IMG/VR virus record: IMGVR_UViG_2740892272_000004
DNA from: a virus
Taxonomy: Duplodnaviria > Heunggongvirae > Uroviricota > Caudoviricetes
Length of the DNA stretch: 43,535 nt
Direction: 5' to 3' (one strand)
The translations under genes were made by a program, and so were the position numbers. The notes beneath the pieces are model-generated. The model made no database searches and was not told the DNA's origin. It saw only the letters and a list, made by a program, of their open reading frames with translations. Each line of letters begins with the position of its first letter. Position 1 is the first letter of the stretch. This document shows positions 6,605 to 35,490 of the stretch, piece after piece.

Positions 6605-8659
6605 TTACGCGTTATTCACTTCCACCACGATACTGTCAATCAGTACCGGGTAAGTCGCATTTTTAGTGATATCGGTCACGCGCAACTTGTCTGCCGTAAA
6701 CGTGCCGACCGGAGACTGCGACAGCATGAATGGTGTCCCGTCCTTACCATCAATGACCGGCGTCACCTCAATACTGTTGTTACCGGCAAAACGGAAGCCC
6801 AGCGTATGCCATTCGTTATTAAATGCGCCGAATGACCCCAGCTTCGTGTTCTGCGCCGTGTTTCCTTTGTGATACATCACGTTAAGGTCTGTGGCATCGC
6901 TCTGTACGTAGAACGATGCCAGCAGGTTATGACCGGCATTTCCTTCCAGAGTAACCCCTTGCGGCAGGGCAGAAACCGGCCAGTACAGCGCCAGTGCGTA
7001 CTGATTAGCCGTAAGCGCGCCATCGAGTTTAAAACGACAACTGACAAGACCACCTTTACCCAGCAGGTCCGCACCATTACCAGCATCATGCTCAAGGTAC
7101 CAGGGGGCTCTTCCTGTTTCCTTGGTCAGTTTCATTGCCTTACCCCCGCTGGCTCCGGCATCATCCACGATTTGAGCCTTGCCACCTCCGGCAGCCCAAC
7201 CCTGTGGTGTCAACCGTCCTTCAGACTCAGATGCCCGGTAAGCAAATAGCGTACTCATCGTCGTGGTGTCTGCGGGTGGCGTGGACGGTTTTGATGGTGT
7301 ATCAGGTGACGGCTTCTCATCCGGTGGTGTCACGGTCTGCCCACGCATCAGTTCAGCCGTGCGCCCTGCATGGAGCATAATAGCTGAGGCCAGACGGTCT
7401 GAAATGACGCCCCTGCGTGCCCATGAGCTGAAATGGCTGTCACGCTGTGTCGAAACAAAACTGCCCTGGGTTCGGGATGCTGCACCGTAATACCCGACAG
7501 CCACAATATCCGGGTCTTCCGCCGGAGCATTCGTTGGCGTGCTCTGTCCATTCTCATCCGTCAGGAACGGTACAAAGAAAATTTTCTGTGCTTCCTTGCC
7601 TTTGTAGCCACCGTATACTGCCTCATATTTATCGGTGCCAGCGTTTTTCCAGTAATACGTGGTATCACCGCAAATCCACGGCACCGTGGTGGCATTTCCA
7701 CTCACGCACTGCGCAGCAAGCGGAGCCAGGTCAGTTCTGAACTGCTGAACCATGGCCGTGAATAAACTATTATGCTGCTGGCTTCCTGAGGCAAGGTCTG
7801 CCTCTCCCTGCATCCAGACCACAGCCAGAAGTTTGTTTTTCGGGTTTTTCGCCAGCGCGACTTTGGTGCGGCTTACCAGGTCCTGATACAGAGGTTTACC
7901 GGCCCCCCAGCGTGAAGAATCAGCGGAAGCACCGCTGGCCTCACTGAATGAGCCGTCGGCTCCAGTGGTGAATGCTGACCCGCCACGACAACAGGGCACC
8001 AGAAGTATCCCGGCATTCTGTGGGATATAGGGAAGCAGTTTTTTGGCAATATGCAACCCCTGACCGACAGTCCCGTACTGGCCTTTTGCCAGATCAGCTT
8101 TCGGGTGGTTTATCCCGCTCATATCCTGAACATCATGCAGGCAGTGGTCTGCCGGAATGATGTCGTTGTATGTACACGACGTACCGTTGGGCGTTACCGT
8201 ACTGCGGCGTGCCAGTTGCTTAATGCGTGGGTCCGGGCGGTCAAACGAATCCGGTAACGGCAGCCCCTCGCCGTAGGCCATGCCATTTGACTGACCCGCG
8301 AGAATGACAACAAAGTAATATTCCGGCTCTGAACTGCTGCCATTCGTGCTACCGGAAGGCCCGGCGTTATCCGGTGCATTCCAGTCGGAGGGCGTGAGCG
8401 TTCCGGCCACGTCAGATGTGATTGGAATGATGCCAGTCACGCCTGAACTGGTGATTTCTGCACTGGGATTACCGGATACCGGCATTACCCATAATGGCTC
8501 TTTCGTGCTGAAGCGGATCACGCAGTCTGCGAAGGTGATCCCCCCTTTATTACCCGAAGGGCGGAAAGGGCTTTCAATAAATGCCACCGTGCCACCGGCA
8601 ACCTTGACTGAAAACTCTCCGGGCATGGCGGAGAGCATTTTCCACTTGGAGTCTGACAT
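6605..8659 (-). CDS. Multi-domain sialate-O-acetylesterase-like (SASA/SGNH hydrolase) protein, NanS-p-like: N-terminal region, esterase core, Pro/Thr-rich linker, C-terminal lectin-like beta domain
   Basis: Contains the GQSN catalytic-serine block (VILAGQSNGMAYGEG) and the W-x-Q-G-E-x-D block (VVWMQGEADLASG) typical of the sialic-acid-specific 9-O-acetylesterase family; linker PDEKPSPDTPSKPSTPPADTTT; 684 aa. Confidence 0.75.
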   Translation of the reverse strand: MSDSKWKMLSAMPGEFSVKVAGGTVAFIESPFRPSGNKGGITFADCVIRFSTKEPLWVMPVSGNPSAEITSSGVTGIIPITSDVAGTLTPSDWNAPDNAGPSGSTNGSSSEPEYYFVVILAGQSNGMAYGEGLPLPDSFDRPDPRIKQLARRSTVTPNGTSCTYNDIIPADHCLHDVQDMSGINHPKADLAKGQYGTVGQGLHIAKKLLPYIPQNAGILLVPCCRGGSAFTTGADGSFSEASGASADSSRWGAGKPLYQDLVSRTKVALAKNPKNKLLAVVWMQGEADLASGSQQHNSLFTAMVQQFRTDLAPLAAQCVSGNATTVPWICGDTTYYWKNAGTDKYEAVYGGYKGKEAQKIFFVPFLTDENGQSTPTNAPAEDPDIVAVGYYGAASRTQGSFVSTQRDSHFSSWARRGVISDRLASAIMLHAGRTAELMRGQTVTPPDEKPSPDTPSKPSTPPADTTTMSTLFAYRASESEGRLTPQGWAAGGGKAQIVDDAGASGGKAMKLTKETGRAPWYLEHDAGNGADLLGKGGLVSCRFKLDGALTANQYALALYWPVSALPQGVTLEGNAGHNLLASFYVQSDATDLNVMYHKGNTAQNTKLGSFGAFNNEWHTLGFRFAGNNSIEVTPVIDGKDGTPFMLSQSPVGTFTADKLRVTDITKNATYPVLIDSIVVEVNNA

Positions 8660-8744: not shown

Positions 8745-9317
8745 TCACGGTACTTTTGGTGACGGAGCTGGTGAGGCAGGAAAATAACGATAAAGGGTGG
8801 AAAGGCCAATATCAAATATCAGTGCGATTTGTTTACGGGACTCGCCATTAGCCAGCAAACGGGCGATTTGCTCCCGCTCTTTCTCTGTCAGTTTCTGAGG
8901 TCTGCCGCCATGACGCCCCTGAGCACGGGCAGCAGCAAGACCCGCGCGTGTACGTTCAATAATGAGTTCCCGCTCCATTTCCGCCAGCGCGCCCATTATA
9001 TGGAAAAAGAAACGTCCCATGGGAGTGGATGTATCAATATTGTCCGTAATGCTGCGGAAGTTAACGCCGCGTTGCCGGAGTTCTTCTGTTAAAAGGACAA
9101 GGTGCTGCATACTGCGTCCAAGGCGATCCAGTTTCCAGACCAGCAGGGTATCCCCTGGCCGGAGTCGCTTTAATGCGCGTTTAAGTCCGGGACGCTCCCT
9201 TGTCTTACCGCTTATTCTGTCTTCGAAAAACAGCTCACATCCTGCACATTCCAGCGCATTTCTTTGTAGCGCCGTATTCTGGTCATTTGTTGACACCCTG
9301 ATATACCCAATCAGCAT
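8745..9317 (-). CDS. gin: Gin-family serine DNA invertase
   Basis: Translation MLIGYIRVSTNDQNTALQRNALECAGCELFFEDRISGKT...GRSMQHL...FHIMGALAEMERELIIERT... is near-identical in pattern to Mu Gin / Hin / Cin, with the catalytic Ser in RVST. Confidence 0.95.
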   Translation of the reverse strand: MLIGYIRVSTNDQNTALQRNALECAGCELFFEDRISGKTRERPGLKRALKRLRPGDTLLVWKLDRLGRSMQHLVLLTEELRQRGVNFRSITDNIDTSTPMGRFFFHIMGALAEMERELIIERTRAGLAAARAQGRHGGRPQKLTEKEREQIARLLANGESRKQIALIFDIGLSTLYRYFPASPAPSPKVP

Positions 9318-32888: not shown

Positions 32889-33311
32889 TCAGAAAAGCCG
32901 TGGCTGCGTGCGTTCCTGATGCAGGCGACGCTGGTTGCGGATAACGGAGTAAATCTGCGTCTCTGACATCTGGTAGTGGCGGCGCAGGGTTTCAATTTTT
33001 TCGCCCTGGCTCCAGCGGGAAAAAATTTCATTATTGCGCAGTTCGGTGAAAAGGGATTCACCGACCGGGAGATAATAACCACGCCCGCCCATGTACCCGG
33101 CCTGTGCGGCTGCAACCTTACGGGCAAGCATTCCCGCCTGAGCAGGTTCAATCCCCTGACGGTGCAGTTCAGCACTGATCACATCAACCAGGTCCCGCAG
33201 CGTGCCGGGCCAGTTCTTTTTCAGCTCATCATCAGGAATATCATCCAGACGGTCAATCAGCGCGTGCAGCTGTTCGCTGTCACCAAACATGCTCATCTGT
33301 GTTTCAGCCAT
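32889..33311 (-). CDS. Mor/C-family transcriptional activator
   Basis: 140 aa; C-terminal helix-turn-helix region (LRRHYQMSETQIYSVIRNQRR) and overall pattern resemble Mu Mor/C; lies between the gemA-like gene and the lysis genes. Confidence 0.7.
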   Translation of the reverse strand: MAETQMSMFGDSEQLHALIDRLDDIPDDELKKNWPGTLRDLVDVISAELHRQGIEPAQAGMLARKVAAAQAGYMGGRGYYLPVGESLFTELRNNEIFSRWSQGEKIETLRRHYQMSETQIYSVIRNQRRLHQERTQPRLF

Positions 33312-33381
33312 ACCCGCCTCCGGTCATCATTACACAGGGCAAGTTTAAAATAAAAATCCCGCGCTGTGGCGGGATTTGGGG

Positions 33382-33894
33382 TTAACGGGGGAATGATTTT
33401 TCATACAGCCTGCAAACACGCTCATAACTCATCACTGCACGTTCCGACATATCCAGGGCTGCCAGCATTTTGCGGCGGTGCCAGCGTTTGAGACGCTCCA
33501 GCACATCAGAGGCCAGCGCGGGTTGTTGCTCCAGCCACTGCCAGTTAGCCACACCTTCGCCGTCGTTCTGCGCGGCCGTCTGCGATTTCACCCAGCGGTT
33601 AAGGGCCGTTTCCCCGCCATCAGAGATAAATCCCTGCCGGTGCATCACTTTCCAGATGGCGCGAATTTTGGCGGTCACCGTACCCGGTTTTAAGGCCCGG
33701 TTAACCGGCTTCTGACGCACTTTAAAACCGCGTTTTTTGAAAACATCCAGCACGCGGGATAACTCACCGGGTGACATATCACGGCAACTGGATTTGCCGG
33801 TGGCTGCCAGCAGCGCGGATGTATAGGTATCATGGTCAAGCTGTAGATCGCGTTTTGCGACATGTATTAAGGTAATCAGGGAAGCGCGATTCAT
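33382..33894 (-). CDS. GemA/gp16-like regulatory protein
   Basis: 170 aa directly upstream of the Mor/C gene, the Mu gemA position. Confidence 0.45.
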   Translation of the reverse strand: MNRASLITLIHVAKRDLQLDHDTYTSALLAATGKSSCRDMSPGELSRVLDVFKKRGFKVRQKPVNRALKPGTVTAKIRAIWKVMHRQGFISDGGETALNRWVKSQTAAQNDGEGVANWQWLEQQPALASDVLERLKRWHRRKMLAALDMSERAVMSYERVCRLYEKSFPR

Positions 33895-33904
33895 TATCGT
33901 GGCT

Positions 33905-33936
33905 CCATAAAAAATGGGCGGTGTTACCGCACCGCC
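33905..33936 (-). terminator. Putative intrinsic terminator on the minus strand (GGCGGTG-loop-CACCGCC followed by a T-run)
   Basis: Minus-strand read: GGCGGTGCGGTAACACCGCC then CATTTTTTAT; lies about 9 kb from the prophage left end. Confidence 0.4.
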
Positions 33937-33964
33937 ATGTCAATTAACATAAAAGGAAAAATCT

Positions 33965-34204
33965 ATGTCAGATATAAAAAATGCACTTGATGTTGCCGCA
34001 TTCACAATGGCTGGAAATCTTATGGTAACCCTGTTCGATAAGGGGCTGATTTCCCGTGAGGAGGCAATACATATTATCAATCTCGCTCAAAAAAACTCTA
34101 CCCCGGAAAATGCAGAAGATATCCAGGATGGCTCATATATTAATACCGACTGGCATTTCGACAATCTCCGGGCCTGTATGGGGATTACCGCTGAAAAAGA
34201 TTAA
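33965..34204 (+). CDS. Hypothetical small protein (79 aa), opposite strand to the early operon, AT-rich
   Basis: ATG preceded by AAGGA; AT-rich composition distinct from neighbouring prophage genes. Confidence 0.4.
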   Translation: MSDIKNALDVAAFTMAGNLMVTLFDKGLISREEAIHIINLAQKNSTPENAEDIQDGSYINTDWHFDNLRACMGITAEKD

Positions 34205-34472
34205 AAATTTTTGCATAATGTTCAGATGTAAGAATTGCTGAACCATCAACACCGAGCCTACGGCGAACGTATTCCTCGCGGGCTATTTTATTATCCAGAG
34301 ATACAGCATCCTTAATCAGGTTAATCTCCCGCTCCATTATCAAAAGGGCTTCTCTGGCTGCAAGATTTTCTTTTATCGCATATTCGATAATGTCCCGCAT
34401 ACGTTCAAGCATGCCGATTTTAGCCAGTTCTTCGTCGATAGATTTAGGCGCAAATTTGATTTCTTTTTCCAT
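34185..34472 (-). CDS. Hypothetical helical charged protein (95 aa from ATG 34472), AT-rich
   Basis: ORF with ATG at 34472 (track start at 34487 is a GTG); convergent with, and overlapping by ~20 bp, the plus-strand ORF. Confidence 0.4.
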   Translation of the reverse strand: MEKEIKFAPKSIDEELAKIGMLERMRDIIEYAIKENLAAREALLIMEREINLIKDAVSLDNKIAREEYVRRRLGVDGSAILTSEHYAKIFNLFQR

Positions 34473-34473
34473 A

Positions 34474-34617
34474 TTATTCATCCTCACAATTTATACATGC
34501 AGTGTCGTCGCCCATATCGCAGTGGTTACATTTTATCTCACCACAATGTGGGCACTCTTTCAGATACTCCGGGTCCTCATTTCCACAGGTGGGACATTCA
34601 ACAATTTGCTCATCCAT
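34474..34617 (-). CDS. Small Cys-rich zinc-ribbon protein (47 aa; MDEQIVECPTCGNEDPEYLKECPHCGEIKCNHCDMGDDTACINCEDE)
   Basis: Not in the ORF track because under 60 aa. Four CxxC-type pairs; start overlaps the stop of the upstream ORF and the stop overlaps the next start, indicating translational coupling. Confidence 0.45.
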   Translation of the reverse strand: MDEQIVECPTCGNEDPEYLKECPHCGEIKCNHCDMGDDTACINCEDE

Positions 34618-34942
34618 TATGTATCCCCTGTAATTCCGGCAAGGCCGAAAGATGGCACCAGTGCGTCACCTGTCCGTCCTCATCTTCAAGGCAGGCTCCG
34701 GTTTCTTCATCAATAAAAAAGCCTTCATACCCCATATGGCCGATGCGCAGTTCCTGTTGGTCACCATACTGAACAATCAGCACGACAGCCTCCATATCAG
34801 GCGGAAATGCGTCATCCAGTGAATGCCAGGGATAACCGCGCAAATCCCCGAAATAAACGCCGGTCAGCGTTCCGCCACAGAGCGGCATTCCGGCGGCACA
34901 CACAAGAGGTTCATCTGATTCAACAAATAAGGTCGTTATCAT
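34610..34942 (-). CDS. Hypothetical protein (110 aa)
   Basis: ORF in the early-operon orientation, translationally coupled to neighbours. Confidence 0.4.
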   Translation of the reverse strand: MITTLFVESDEPLVCAAGMPLCGGTLTGVYFGDLRGYPWHSLDDAFPPDMEAVVLIVQYGDQQELRIGHMGYEGFFIDEETGACLEDEDGQVTHWCHLSALPELQGIHNG

Positions 34943-35490
34943 GGCGTTAACTCCCGTAATACAGCGTCCTCGGCAGTCCGGCGACGGTAATAAACTGCGT
35001 GAGCAGAATGTTCAGATATTCCAAACTTTTCGCCAATTTCCCGGAATGACAGACGGCGTGGGTAATCGGAATCACGCAGCTCACGTATAAGACGTACATC
35101 ATCATCAGATATGCGCGTGCCGGGGCGTAACTCTCCGCACTTTGTTAATCCAGCACCAATCATTCCTGCCCGACATCTGACAGAATCTTTATTACGTCCG
35201 AGATATTCTCCCATTTGCTGGCAGGTCATTGTTCTGGCATTTTTTCGAATAAACTTATCTTCATCAGGTGTAAATCTTGGGTGTTTATATTTCAGTAACT
35301 CCGGGTATGAACTGCGCAATACACCAGTCCGGTTATATACAGCCCAGACAGTTCTTTTTATTCTGGCAGCAATATCCTTAACCGGGGTGGATGAATAAAG
35401 CGCAATCAGCAGCGCATCTTCTTCAGGTGTCCACGGACGGACATGAGCGGGGGCGCGACCTTTTAGTCCCATGGGTTGTAATTTCATCAT
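34939..35490 (-). CDS. Hypothetical DNA-binding protein with three tandem helix-turn-helix-like repeats
   Basis: Three internally repeated segments (WTPEEDALLIALY..., FTPDEDKFIRKNA..., ISDDDVRLIRELR...) each resembling a small HTH unit. Confidence 0.45.
   Translation of the reverse strand: MMKLQPMGLKGRAPAHVRPWTPEEDALLIALYSSTPVKDIAARIKRTVWAVYNRTGVLRSSYPELLKYKHPRFTPDEDKFIRKNARTMTCQQMGEYLGRNKDSVRCRAGMIGAGLTKCGELRPGTRISDDDVRLIRELRDSDYPRRLSFREIGEKFGISEHSAHAVYYRRRTAEDAVLRELTP

What the first reader, a model, noticed from the sequence alone, without database searches (positions are those of the whole stretch)
33905..34617. AT-rich insert in the early region with convergent small ORFs and a 47-aa zinc-ribbon ORF
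Between the gemA-like gene and the upstream early genes lies a distinctly AT-rich block. It contains a plus-strand 79-aa ORF (opposite to the early operon, so potentially expressed in the lysogen independently of early transcription), a convergent minus-strand 95-aa helical charged ORF overlapping it by about 20 bp, and a tightly coupled 47-aa four-Cys-pair ORF that the ORF track missed. A hairpin plus T-run terminator in the minus orientation (33905..33936) lies just beyond. Convergent, compositionally foreign small gene pairs in prophages are frequent sites of toxin-antitoxin, exclusion or anti-defence functions; none of these proteins has an obvious family.
Basis: inference. Interest (0 to 1): 0.55.

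Follow-up and report, generated by a model that had tools for sequence, protein, structure and literature searches.

The report
Phage Mu gp13–gp14–gp15 early module
The AT-rich block is not a foreign insert: it is this E. coli Mu-like prophage's copy of three long-annotated phage Mu early genes of unknown function (gp13, gp14, gp15), and the backwards-facing gp15-like gene looks like a separate small transcription unit.

Summary
All the described features are present: a 79-aa plus-strand ORF (A), a 95-aa minus-strand ORF (B) overlapping it by 20 bp, a tightly coupled 47-aa ORF with four CxxC pairs (C) that PGAP does not annotate, a hairpin plus T-run before gemA, and low GC (0.42 against 0.535).

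The "foreign insert" reading fails.
- C is Mu gp13 (88% identity).
- B is Mu gp14 (49% identity).
- A is a divergent allele of Mu gp15, the leftward gene annotated in this part of the Mu early region. It sits in the same slot and orientation (hhalign probability 93%).

In all ten A- or gp15-family loci examined, the gp15-like gene is convergent with, and overlaps, a gp14-like gene. The pair is flanked by two structure-conserved hairpins:
- One lies just before the ribosome-binding site of the next early gene.
- The other lies inside the gp14 coding sequence with a T-rich tail on the gp15 strand. Its stability is held by synonymous-site choice (summed folding energy −158 against −52±10 kcal/mol) and is greater as gp15-sense RNA.

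I read A as a separately transcribed leftward gene at a convergent-transcription node upstream of gemA–mor.

No protein function, promoter, toxin–antitoxin, defence or anti-defence signature was found. This is a divergent member of a known but uncharacterised module, of modest interest.

The parts
33907..33936 (-). GC-rich hairpin (GGCGGTG-CGGTAA-CACCGCC, 33936..33917) followed by a U6 tract, about 12 nt before the gemA ribosome-binding site. It looks like an intrinsic terminator or attenuator on the early strand. The alternative reading is a 5' stabiliser or translation insulator for gemA.
   Evidence: Flagged by the consensus scan. A hairpin in the same position, followed by a U-rich tract and then GGAG, is present in the ten A- or gp15-family loci and in the DUF2513 locus TOE17. 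The stem sequences differ in L048, L050 and TOE17, so the structure is kept while the sequence is not.
33895..33964 (.). 70-nt intergenic region between the divergent starts of gemA and ORF A. It holds the hairpin and the ribosome-binding site of A (AAGGA, 7 nt before the ATG).
   Evidence: 0 of 70 sites vary among five variants whose flanking genes vary at 8-13 sites per 100 nt. The spacing of 68-74 nt and an AGGA-type ribosome-binding site recur in the homologous loci; L048 has 95 nt.
33965..34204 (+). ORF A, 79 aa, acidic (pI 4.5), predicted three-helix protein. It is a divergent allele of phage Mu gp15 and is encoded opposite to the early operon.
   Evidence: phrog_32893, E 1.3e-45. An exhaustive HMMER search of 1.84 billion representative proteins finds only 9 clusters; the distant ones (37-49% identity) keep D9, F13, N18, L23, G27 and the C-terminal WHxDNL motif. 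hhalign against Mu gp15: probability 93%, E 3e-7. Against the unannotated D108 ORF: 94.6%, E 7e-8. Same slot and orientation in every context examined. AlphaFold2 pLDDT 70.7, helices 2-25, 31-45 and 61-71.
34089..34095 (+). A7 homopolymer run inside ORF A. It is one site at which database variants shift into the other open reading frame.
   Evidence: Sequence. P0008 reads AQKTLPRKMQ..., as expected if the run were A6. Four of ten clusters (P0005, P0008-P0010) carry the alternative-frame C-terminus, and three more (P0004, P0006, P0007) are truncated or otherwise divergent.
34255..34293 (+). Hairpin (AGCCTACGG / TCGCGGGCT, 34255-34284) plus the tail ATTTTATTA on the A-sense strand, embedded in the B coding sequence at the motif A-R-E-E-Y-V-R-R-R-L. 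Candidate intrinsic terminator of the A transcription unit.
   Evidence: Present in all nine loci tested. 94% of cells are paired, against 30-46% when the partner columns are slid; two pairs show changes on both sides. Shuffling synonymous codons gives a summed folding energy of −52±10 against −158 kcal/mol observed, with each locus at p≤0.04. It is more stable as A-sense RNA in 8 of 9 loci. The window copy is the weakest (−10.8 kcal/mol, one A·C mismatch). TransTermHP flagged the Mu equivalent at 7839-7873.
34185..34472 (-). ORF B, 95 aa, helical. Orthologue of Mu gp14 (formerly E15). Its 3' end overlaps that of A.
   Evidence: BLASTP against Mu gp14: 49% identity, E 1e-30. phrog_6075, E 5e-44. 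Homologues lie convergent to every A-like or gp15-like gene whose partner was compared, with E from 1e-11 to 1e-29. Codon-position counts 2/6/16. AlphaFold2 pLDDT 86.9.
34474..34617 (-). ORF C, 47 aa, very acidic (net charge about −12), with four CxxC pairs (a double zinc ribbon). Orthologue of Mu gp13 (formerly E14). It is translationally coupled to D upstream and to B downstream.
   Evidence: BLASTP against Mu gp13: 88% identity over 41 aa, E 2e-27. phrog_5584, E 3e-26. Codon-position counts 2/1/6. Only weak zinc-ribbon matches in Pfam. Not annotated by PGAP.
33382..33894 (-). gemA (gp16 family). The early gene whose ribosome-binding site directly follows the hairpin. Context only.
   Evidence: Pfam GemA, E 1.8e-28; PGAP calls it a gp16 family protein.

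Best explanation
The block is this Mu-like prophage's version of the phage Mu gp13–gp14–gp15 segment, which lies in the early region just upstream of gemA–mor.

**Shown.**
- C is gp13, B is gp14, and A is a divergent allele of gp15. RefSeq annotates gp15 on the strand opposite to its neighbours gp12-gp17.
- gp14-like and gp15-like genes form a conserved convergent pair with overlapping 3' ends.
- Two structure-conserved hairpins flank the gp15-like gene.

**Inferred mechanism.**
- C and B are made from the early transcript by coupled translation.
- A is a separate leftward transcription unit. Its mRNA ends at the hairpin buried in B, so its 3' part is antisense to about 110 nt of the B coding sequence.
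- When the early promoter fires, early transcription crosses A in antisense. It is then attenuated, or processed, at the hairpin and U tract just before gemA.
- The locus would therefore act as a convergent-transcription and antisense node. It would silence A on induction, and possibly lower B and read-through into gemA–mor while A is being transcribed.

The biochemical roles of the three small proteins remain unknown. A is an acidic three-helix protein, B is a helical protein, and C is an acidic double zinc ribbon.

My confidence by step: identity about 0.9; A as an independent terminated transcription unit about 0.6; regulatory gating about 0.3.
For: **Identity**
- B+C DNA matches Mu 7528-7875 at 72% identity.
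- Protein matches to gp14 and gp13.
- RefSeq annotates Mup15 on the complement strand at 7896-8162, between gp14 and gemA. PGAP does the same in E. coli W.
- The A-family profile matches Mu gp15 (probability 93%) and the D108 ORF (94.6%). Mu gp15 also hits A's PHROG family at E 5.9e-4.

**Module**
- Ten loci (window, L006, Mu, D108, SfMu, L043, L046, L048, L049, L050) share the convergent arrangement. Measured overlaps are 4-98 bp.
- The neighbours differ between loci. gp13 is absent from L043, L046 and L048.

**Terminator of A**
- selection at synonymous sites, strand asymmetry, and a T-rich tail on the A-sense strand.

**Hairpin before gemA**
-. It accompanies the opposite-strand gene. In SJ7, the one inspected prophage of the majority type, gemA is overlapped by an upstream co-directional ORF.

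**A is a real protein**
- Conserved ribosome-binding site and conserved N- and C-terminal motifs down to 37% identity.
Against: - No convincing or positionally conserved sigma-70 promoter was found for A. The best recurring candidate would start transcription downstream of the ribosome-binding site.
- There are no expression data, and no paper on the function of gp13, gp14 or gp15 was found.
- The U tract after the gemA-proximal hairpin is strong in the window (U6) but weak in Mu (CCCUUUCC), and the updated Mu record lists no TransTermHP terminator there. In Mu that stretch is annotated as a semi-early promoter, and I could not read the cited paper.
- The hairpin in B could serve the B mRNA instead. 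In the window it is equally stable on both strands and has a mismatch.
- Pairwise BLASTP of A against Mu gp15 is not significant; the homology rests on profile comparisons.
- About half of the A-type database clusters are frameshifted or truncated, which suggests the protein is dispensable in some lineages.
Confidence: 0.55

Rival explanations
1. One reading: A, alone or with B, is an accessory gene expressed in the lysogen that benefits the host or the prophage. The candidate roles are superinfection exclusion, anti-phage defence, anti-defence, or a toxin–antitoxin-like pair. This does not exclude the architecture described above; it concerns what the proteins do.
For: - A is oriented against the early operon, like the repressor-end ORF at 42092..42637 (+), and has its own terminator-like element.
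- The slot shows allelic replacement. In 5,426 complete E. coli genomes the counts are A-type 14, Mu gp15-type 27, D108-type 1 and a DUF2513 gene on the same strand 6.
- Most prophages with this gemA lack the intergenic region.
- A has a hypervariable patch at residues 44-54, with 15 of its 27 variable nucleotide sites falling within 28 nt.
- A and C are strongly acidic small proteins.
Against: - No hit in PADLOC, and no toxin, antitoxin or defence domain in Pfam or NCBIfam.
- Fold searches give only generic helical matches.
- B and C are orthologues of Mu early genes, not cargo.
- The pair is convergent, not co-transcribed as in type II toxin–antitoxin systems. Neither protein is a small hydrophobic peptide as in type I systems.
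- Frequent frameshifted A variants argue against an addictive antitoxin.
- No promoter was found.
Confidence: 0.22
2. The hairpin before gemA is not a terminator. On this reading it is a 5' stem-loop plus a U-rich standby site. It would protect a processed gemA–mor mRNA and allow independent translation initiation of gemA after the roughly 290-nt untranslated stretch (antisense to A) that separates it from B.
For: - The hairpin occurs where an opposite-strand gene breaks translational coupling. In the inspected majority-type prophage (SJ7), gemA overlaps a co-directional upstream ORF and the hairpin is absent.
- The element always sits directly before the GGAG of the next early gene, including the DUF2786 gene in L048.
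- The U tracts are short or interrupted in Mu, L043 and TOE17.
- Mor, encoded downstream, is annotated as the positive regulator of the middle operon, so a strong terminator here would be costly.
Against: - In the window, L046, L048 and L049 the element has the canonical form of an intrinsic terminator: a stem of 7-9 G+C-rich pairs followed by a U-rich tract, U5-U6 uninterrupted in the window and L048.
- Stability on the two strands does not discriminate between the readings.
Confidence: 0.3
3. ORF A is a chance open frame in AT-rich spacer DNA. On this reading the real gene, if any, lies on the early strand, as in the updated GenBank Mu record, which annotates Mu_54 there.
For: - AF083977 now lists Mu_54 (55 aa, early strand) in place of gp15.
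- A has only a weak third-codon-position bias (8/5/14).
- Both forward frames are open over its C-terminal half, and frameshifted variants exist.
Against: - A family of full-length homologues at 37-49% identity keeps motifs at both the N and C termini.
- The ribosome-binding site is conserved.
- The window has no early-strand ORF with an ATG start in this stretch.
- Mu_54 has only a non-significant PHROG hit (E 0.027), whereas Mu gp15 matches phrog_8747 at 7e-60.
- The terminator-like hairpin is oriented for the leftward gene.
Confidence: 0.03

Closest known systems
Phage Mu gp13 (E14), gp14 (E15) and gp15 (Mup13-15, NC_000929 7471-8162), in the Mu early region just upstream of gemA
   Same: Same order, strands and position directly upstream of gemA. 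C is 88% identical to gp13 and B is 49% identical to gp14. A matches gp15 by profile comparison and shares its slot, its orientation, its 3' overlap with gp14, and both hairpins.
   Different: A belongs to a different PHROG family (32893, not 8747) and has a different C-terminal half with a WHxDNL motif. C lacks the first 19 residues of gp13. The gene upstream of C is an unrelated 110-aa protein rather than gp12. The U tract before gemA is much stronger here than in Mu.
Phage lambda OOP antisense RNA and cII (from my own knowledge, not tested here)
   Same: A short leftward transcript with its own terminator, convergent with an early operon, whose 3' part is complementary to the 3' end of an early coding sequence.
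   Different: OOP is non-coding, whereas A encodes a conserved protein. No promoter, RNA or RNase III dependence has been shown here.
Prophage accessory genes ('morons': a gene with its own promoter and terminator, inserted between conserved genes)
   Same: Opposite-strand or autonomous small gene with its own terminator-like element. It is present in some relatives and absent from others, and the slot carries alternative alleles including a DUF2513 gene.
   Different: The gene is present in phage Mu itself and is always paired with gp14. No promoter was identified. The low GC is shared by the homologous module in other phages.
Type I toxin–antitoxin loci with convergent, 3'-overlapping transcripts (fst/RNAII, txpA/RatA; from my own knowledge)
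   Same: Convergent transcription units with overlapping 3' ends.
   Different: Here both partners are soluble, charged proteins of 79-121 aa. There is no small hydrophobic toxin and no evidence of toxicity.

Membership tests
Mu gp13 (E14) family, phrog_5584 | Sequence similarity over the domain with four CxxC motifs | tested here: met
   88% identity over 41 aa, E 2e-27; phrog_5584 at E 3e-26.
Mu gp13 (E14) family, phrog_5584 | Position immediately upstream of gp14 on the early strand, with coupled start and stop codons | tested here: met
   The TAA stop of C lies 1 nt before the ATG of B. Mu has gp13 at 7471-7653 and gp14 at 7655-7957.
Mu gp14 (E15) family, phrog_6075 | Full-length sequence similarity | tested here: met
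   49% identity over 94 aa, E 1e-30; phrog_6075 at E 5e-44.
Mu gp15 family (leftward gene between gp14 and gemA) | Sequence homology to Mu gp15 | tested here: met
   hhalign probability 93.1%, E 3e-7, colinear over residues 1-54. Mu gp15 hits phrog_32893 at E 5.9e-4. Pairwise BLASTP is not significant, so the relationship is remote and covers only the N-terminal two helices.
Mu gp15 family (leftward gene between gp14 and gemA) | Same slot, opposite strand, 3' overlap with gp14, about 70-nt hairpin-bearing spacer to gemA | tested here: met
Accessory 'moron' gene | Own terminator | tested here: met
   By sequence only: a conserved hairpin with a T-rich tail on the A-sense strand. Termination itself was not tested.
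Accessory 'moron' gene | Own promoter, with expression in the lysogen | tested here: inconclusive
   No convincing sigma-70 site. Expression cannot be tested with these tools.
Accessory 'moron' gene | Inserted between genes that are adjacent in close relatives | tested here: inconclusive
   Absent from most E. coli prophages with this gemA. But it is present in Mu, D108 and SfMu and is always paired with gp14, so it behaves as an exchangeable module rather than as an insertion.
Type II toxin–antitoxin system | Two co-transcribed adjacent genes, one with a recognisable toxin or antitoxin fold | tested here: not met
Type I toxin–antitoxin system | Small hydrophobic membrane toxin plus an antisense RNA | tested here: not met
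   A, B and C are hydrophilic (GRAVY −0.23, −0.29 and −0.83) and predicted to be soluble helical or zinc-ribbon proteins.
Known anti-phage defence systems (PADLOC-DB v2) | Match to any defence protein model | tested here: not met
   0 families for A, B, C and D at E≤1.
Intrinsic (Rho-independent) terminator | G+C-rich stem-loop directly followed by a U tract | tested here: met
   33936..33907 (−): 7 pairs, 6 of them G-C, then U6. 34255-34293 (+): 9 pairs with one mismatch, a 12-nt loop, then AUUUUAUUA.
Intrinsic (Rho-independent) terminator | Actual termination of transcription | not testable with these tools
   Needs Term-seq, a reporter assay or in vitro transcription.
Rfam RNA families | Match to a curated covariance model | tested here: not met
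   Only two chance-level hits, both outside the block.

The most novel reading that the evidence does not exclude
The conserved convergent gp14/gp15 pair could be a previously unrecognised switch in Mu-type phages. On this reading, a gp15-like protein made in the lysogen, together with the antisense 3' part of its mRNA, holds down gp14 and read-through into gemA–mor. That would insulate the Mor→C lytic cascade from leaky early transcription, and induced early transcription would silence gp15 in turn. Alternatively, the fast-evolving gp15 slot (A-type, Mu-type, D108-type and DUF2513 alleles) could encode exclusion or anti-defence factors specific to different hosts or competitors.
Probability: 0.2. 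Interest if true: 0.6.

Novelty: new member of a known kind. Interest (0 to 1): 0.3.

Why it matters
Mu is a classic model phage, yet gp13, gp14 and gp15 have no assigned function in any annotation or paper I could find. This analysis adds four things:
- The leftward gp15 gene is the real, conserved gene in its slot. The updated GenBank Mu record lists an early-strand ORF (Mu_54) there, and the D108 record lists nothing.
- gp15 always travels with gp14 as a convergent, overlapping pair.
- An RNA hairpin held in place by synonymous-site selection lies inside gp14, oriented as a terminator for gp15.
- A second hairpin sits between this pair and gemA–mor, and mor encodes the activator of middle transcription.

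If the node really gates mor expression or marks a lysogen-expressed function, it would be a small but testable addition to the Mu regulatory circuit. If not, the block is simply a set of ordinary early genes of unknown function.

Tried and rejected
**Family and structure searches that gave nothing useful**
- Pfam, NCBIfam and PADLOC scans of A, B, C, D and their distant homologues gave nothing above threshold. C has only sub-threshold zinc-ribbon hits, and D a weak DUF551 hit.
- PDB sequence and profile searches gave nothing significant. The A-family profile has weak matches to the helical lid of Hsp70 (E 0.03-0.4), which I treat as chance.
- Rfam gave nothing in the block.
- The word-indexed protein searches returned only 8-10 close E. 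coli clusters each.

**Comparative and promoter work**
- 30 distant GemA loci from other genera have no A, B or C homologue, and their upstream gene is co-directional with gemA.
- Promoter hunting with the consensus scan and with my own position-weight scoring over ten loci found no convincing conserved promoter for A.

**Literature**
- Searches on the Mu early region, the gem operon, gp15 and Mup13-15, DUF2513 and Mu RNA-seq found nothing on these genes.
- PMID 9454718, cited in the Mu record for the semi-early promoter, is not held.

**Explanations considered and rejected**
- A recent foreign insertion, because the module is GC-poor in Mu and L043 too.
- A as a chance ORF.
- Type I or type II toxin–antitoxin systems.
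Full report
**1. Observation**

The window is an E. coli Mu-like prophage. The 2.2 kb around the finding is 100% identical to several complete E. coli genomes. The early operon runs on the minus strand: gam family, then small ORFs, then gemA (33382-33894), mor (32889-33311) and lysozyme.

- ORF A, 33965-34204 (+), 79 aa.
- ORF B, 34185-34472 (−), 95 aa, overlapping A by 20 bp.
- ORF C, 34474-34617 (−), 47 aa, with four CxxC pairs. Its stop is 1 nt from the ATG of B, and its start overlaps the stop of the upstream 110-aa ORF D.
- A minus-strand hairpin (33936..33917) followed by T6.

The block has GC 0.417 against 0.535 for the window. PGAP does not annotate C. Among five variants at 92-100% identity, substitutions in B, C, D and gemA concentrate at third codon positions. 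A shows a weaker bias. The 70-nt spacer between gemA and A is invariant.

**2. What the genes are**

A sensitive nucleotide search shows that the B+C half is 72% identical to phage Mu 7528-7875, and also matches D108, SfMu and Yersinia Mu-like phages.
- C is Mu gp13 (E14): 88% identity over the zinc-ribbon domain.
- B is Mu gp14 (E15): 49% identity over its full length.

In RefSeq Mu, the next gene towards gemA is gp15 (Mup15). It has 88 aa, lies on the complement strand, and overlaps the 3' end of gp14 by 62 bp. This is the arrangement of A. PGAP annotates the same leftward gene in the Mu prophage of E. coli W, and SfMu has it too. D108 has an unannotated 119-aa leftward ORF there.

The evidence that A is related to these:
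- A against the D108 ORF: BLASTP E 2e-6 over a 33-residue core.
- Mu gp15 hits A's PHROG family at E 5.9e-4.
- An A-family profile aligns colinearly with Mu gp15 (probability 93%, E 3e-7) and with the D108 ORF (94.6%, E 7e-8).
- Pairwise BLASTP of A against Mu gp15 is not significant, so the relationship is remote and covers the N-terminal two helices.

An exhaustive HMMER search of 1.84 billion representative proteins found only nine A-type clusters. The distant ones (37-49% identity) keep D9, F13, N18, L23, G27 and a C-terminal WHxDNL motif. A is therefore a genuine, rare protein family.

**3. A conserved convergent module**

I looked up where five distant A-type proteins are encoded. Each lies on the anti-early strand of a Mu-like early region. 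Four sit 68-74 nt from the start of GemA. The fifth (L048) sits next to a DUF2786 gene, two genes before GemA. Each is convergent with, and overlaps, a gene of about 100 aa.

Where I compared that partner by BLASTP (L043, L046, L048, D108, Mu, SfMu), it is a gp14/B homologue, with E from 1e-11 to 1e-29. The partners in L049 and L050 carry the same A-R-x4-R-R-x-L-G motif.

The remaining neighbours differ between loci. The gp13 zinc ribbon is missing from L043, L046 and L048. So gp14 and gp15 travel together.

The module is not universal:
- 30 GemA loci from other genera lack it, and their upstream gene is co-directional with gemA.
- Of 262 E. coli genomes matching a query that spans the gemA 5' end and the spacer, only 19 keep at least 80% of it; most matches end inside gemA. 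The one prophage of that majority type that I inspected (SJ7) has only co-directional ORFs, the nearest overlapping the gemA start.
- Allele counts in 5,426 complete genomes: A-type 14, Mu gp15-type 27, D108-type 1. A different opposite-strand gene (DUF2513), paired with an unrelated 102-aa gene, occurs in 6.

The equivalent block is GC-poor relative to gemA in Mu and L043 as well. Low GC is therefore a property of the module, not a sign of recent import.

**4. Two hairpins**

*(a) Before gemA.* On the early strand, every locus with an opposite-strand gene has a G+C-rich hairpin followed by a U-rich tract, and then the GGAG of the next early gene.
- Most loci share the stem GGCGGTG/CACCGCC.
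- L048, L050 and TOE17 have different stems in the same place.
- In the window the element has canonical terminator form, with U6. In Mu the U tract is poor, and the updated GenBank record labels the region a semi-early promoter. I could not read the source paper.

*(b) Inside gp14.* A second hairpin lies at the codons for A-R-x4-R-R-x-L. Its T-rich tail is on the gp15-sense strand. In the window it spans 34255-34284, with the tail running to 34293.
- It is present in all nine loci tested.
- 94% of cells pair, against 30-46% when the partner columns are slid, and two pairs change on both sides.
- Shuffling synonymous codons while keeping the protein gives a summed folding energy of −52±10 kcal/mol, against −158 observed. 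Each locus is at p≤0.04.
- Because several pairs are G·U, the hairpin is more stable as gp15-sense RNA in 8 of 9 loci: −158 against −119 in total.
- TransTermHP flagged the Mu copy.

I read this second hairpin as the terminator of the leftward gene. The window's copy is the weakest: one A·C mismatch and −10.8 kcal/mol.

**5. Mechanism (inference)**

C and B are translated in a coupled way from the early transcript. A is a separate leftward unit, and its 3' region is antisense to about 110 nt of B. Induced early transcription crosses A in antisense and then meets the hairpin before gemA.

This geometry resembles known convergent-transcription and antisense arrangements, such as lambda OOP and cII (from my own knowledge). 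It could silence A on induction, and it could limit B and read-through into gemA–mor when A is active.

A rival reading of hairpin (a) is that it acts as a 5' stabiliser and translation insulator. That would be needed because the opposite-strand gene breaks translational coupling to gemA. I cannot separate the two readings.

No convincing promoter for A was found, and no expression data exist in the held literature.

**6. Protein function**

Nothing informative was found.
- There are no significant Pfam, NCBIfam or PADLOC hits.
- PDB sequence and profile searches are negative, apart from non-significant matches to the Hsp70 lid.
- The AlphaFold2 models are a three-helix A (pLDDT 71) and a helical B (pLDDT 87). 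Their fold-search matches are all generic.
- A and C are strongly acidic, with net charges of −7 and −12.

The toxin–antitoxin, exclusion and anti-defence ideas therefore remain untested. They are favoured only by the gene's orientation, the allelic turnover at the slot, and a hypervariable patch in A (residues 44-54). Against an essential antitoxin role, about half of the A-type database clusters are frameshifted or truncated, one of them at the A7 run 34089-34095.

**7. Verdict**

The "foreign insert" interpretation is not supported. The idea of an independently expressed opposite-strand gene gains indirect support.

The block is a divergent member of the known but uncharacterised Mu gp13–gp14–gp15 module. 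What is new is modest:
- gp15 homology for A and for the unannotated D108 ORF.
- The gp14/gp15 convergent pairing.
- The two conserved hairpins.

Interest 0.3.

Noticed in passing
window 34474-34617 (−); L001 4174-4310: PGAP does not annotate the 47-aa gp13 homologue in any of the E. coli genomes inspected for this prophage type, although it is 88% identical to Mu gp13 and shows purifying selection.
   Followed up: yes
L004 2214-2480 (Mu 7896-8162, complement) versus Mu_54 at L004 2249-2416: The updated GenBank Mu record AF083977 lists an early-strand ORF, Mu_54 (55 aa), where RefSeq lists the leftward gp15. Mu_54 has only a non-significant PHROG hit (E 0.027) and no counterpart in the window, whereas gp15 has conserved homologues. 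The leftward gene looks like the real one.
   Followed up: partly
L011 839-1198 (+) (phage D108, GQ357916): D108 has an unannotated 119-aa leftward ORF between gene 14 and gemA. It is homologous to ORF A and has the same hairpin and ribosome-binding site upstream.
   Followed up: yes
window 34089-34095 and 34056-34241 (+): An A7 run lies in ORF A, and the second forward frame is open for 61 codons. Four of the ten A-type protein clusters in the database are shifted into that frame at different sites, and three more are truncated or otherwise divergent. This could be decay, sequencing error or tolerated variation.
   Followed up: partly
window 34094-34122 (A residues 44-54): A hypervariable patch: NSTPENAEDIQ against SAAPQSAEGHQ. 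15 of the gene's 27 variable sites fall within 28 nt, while the first 43 residues are nearly invariant. This could be a recombination tract or diversifying selection.
   Followed up: no
L002 2160-2840 (E. coli TOE17); window slot 33895-34472: In six E. coli genomes the gp15/gp14 pair is replaced by another convergent pair. It consists of a DUF2513 gene on the anti-early strand and a 102-aa gene related to SfMu_14. The hairpin before gemA is retained, with a different stem.
   Followed up: partly
L051 3010-3705; phrog_6418: In some Mu-type prophages gp12 and gp13 appear to be fused into a single 231-aa protein, which would explain C's match to the C-terminus of phrog_6418. I infer the fusion from the lengths and position only. 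It hints that the zinc ribbon works together with gp12.
   Followed up: no
window 34610-34942 (−): The 110-aa ORF D occupies the place of Mu gp12 but is unrelated to it (no BLASTP alignment). It matches phrog_6925 and has a weak DUF551-like hit.
   Followed up: no
window 33354-33377 (−): A second terminator-like hairpin (9 pairs, then a T-rich tail) lies between gemA and mor. That is inside the gem operon, not after mor as in Mu, where a terminator is annotated at 9179-9200.
   Followed up: no
window 34939-35490 (−): A 183-aa early protein is annotated by PGAP as SANT/Myb-like DNA-binding. Its homologues in related prophages are labelled AsnC family or DNA-binding protein, so the naming is inconsistent.
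   Followed up: no
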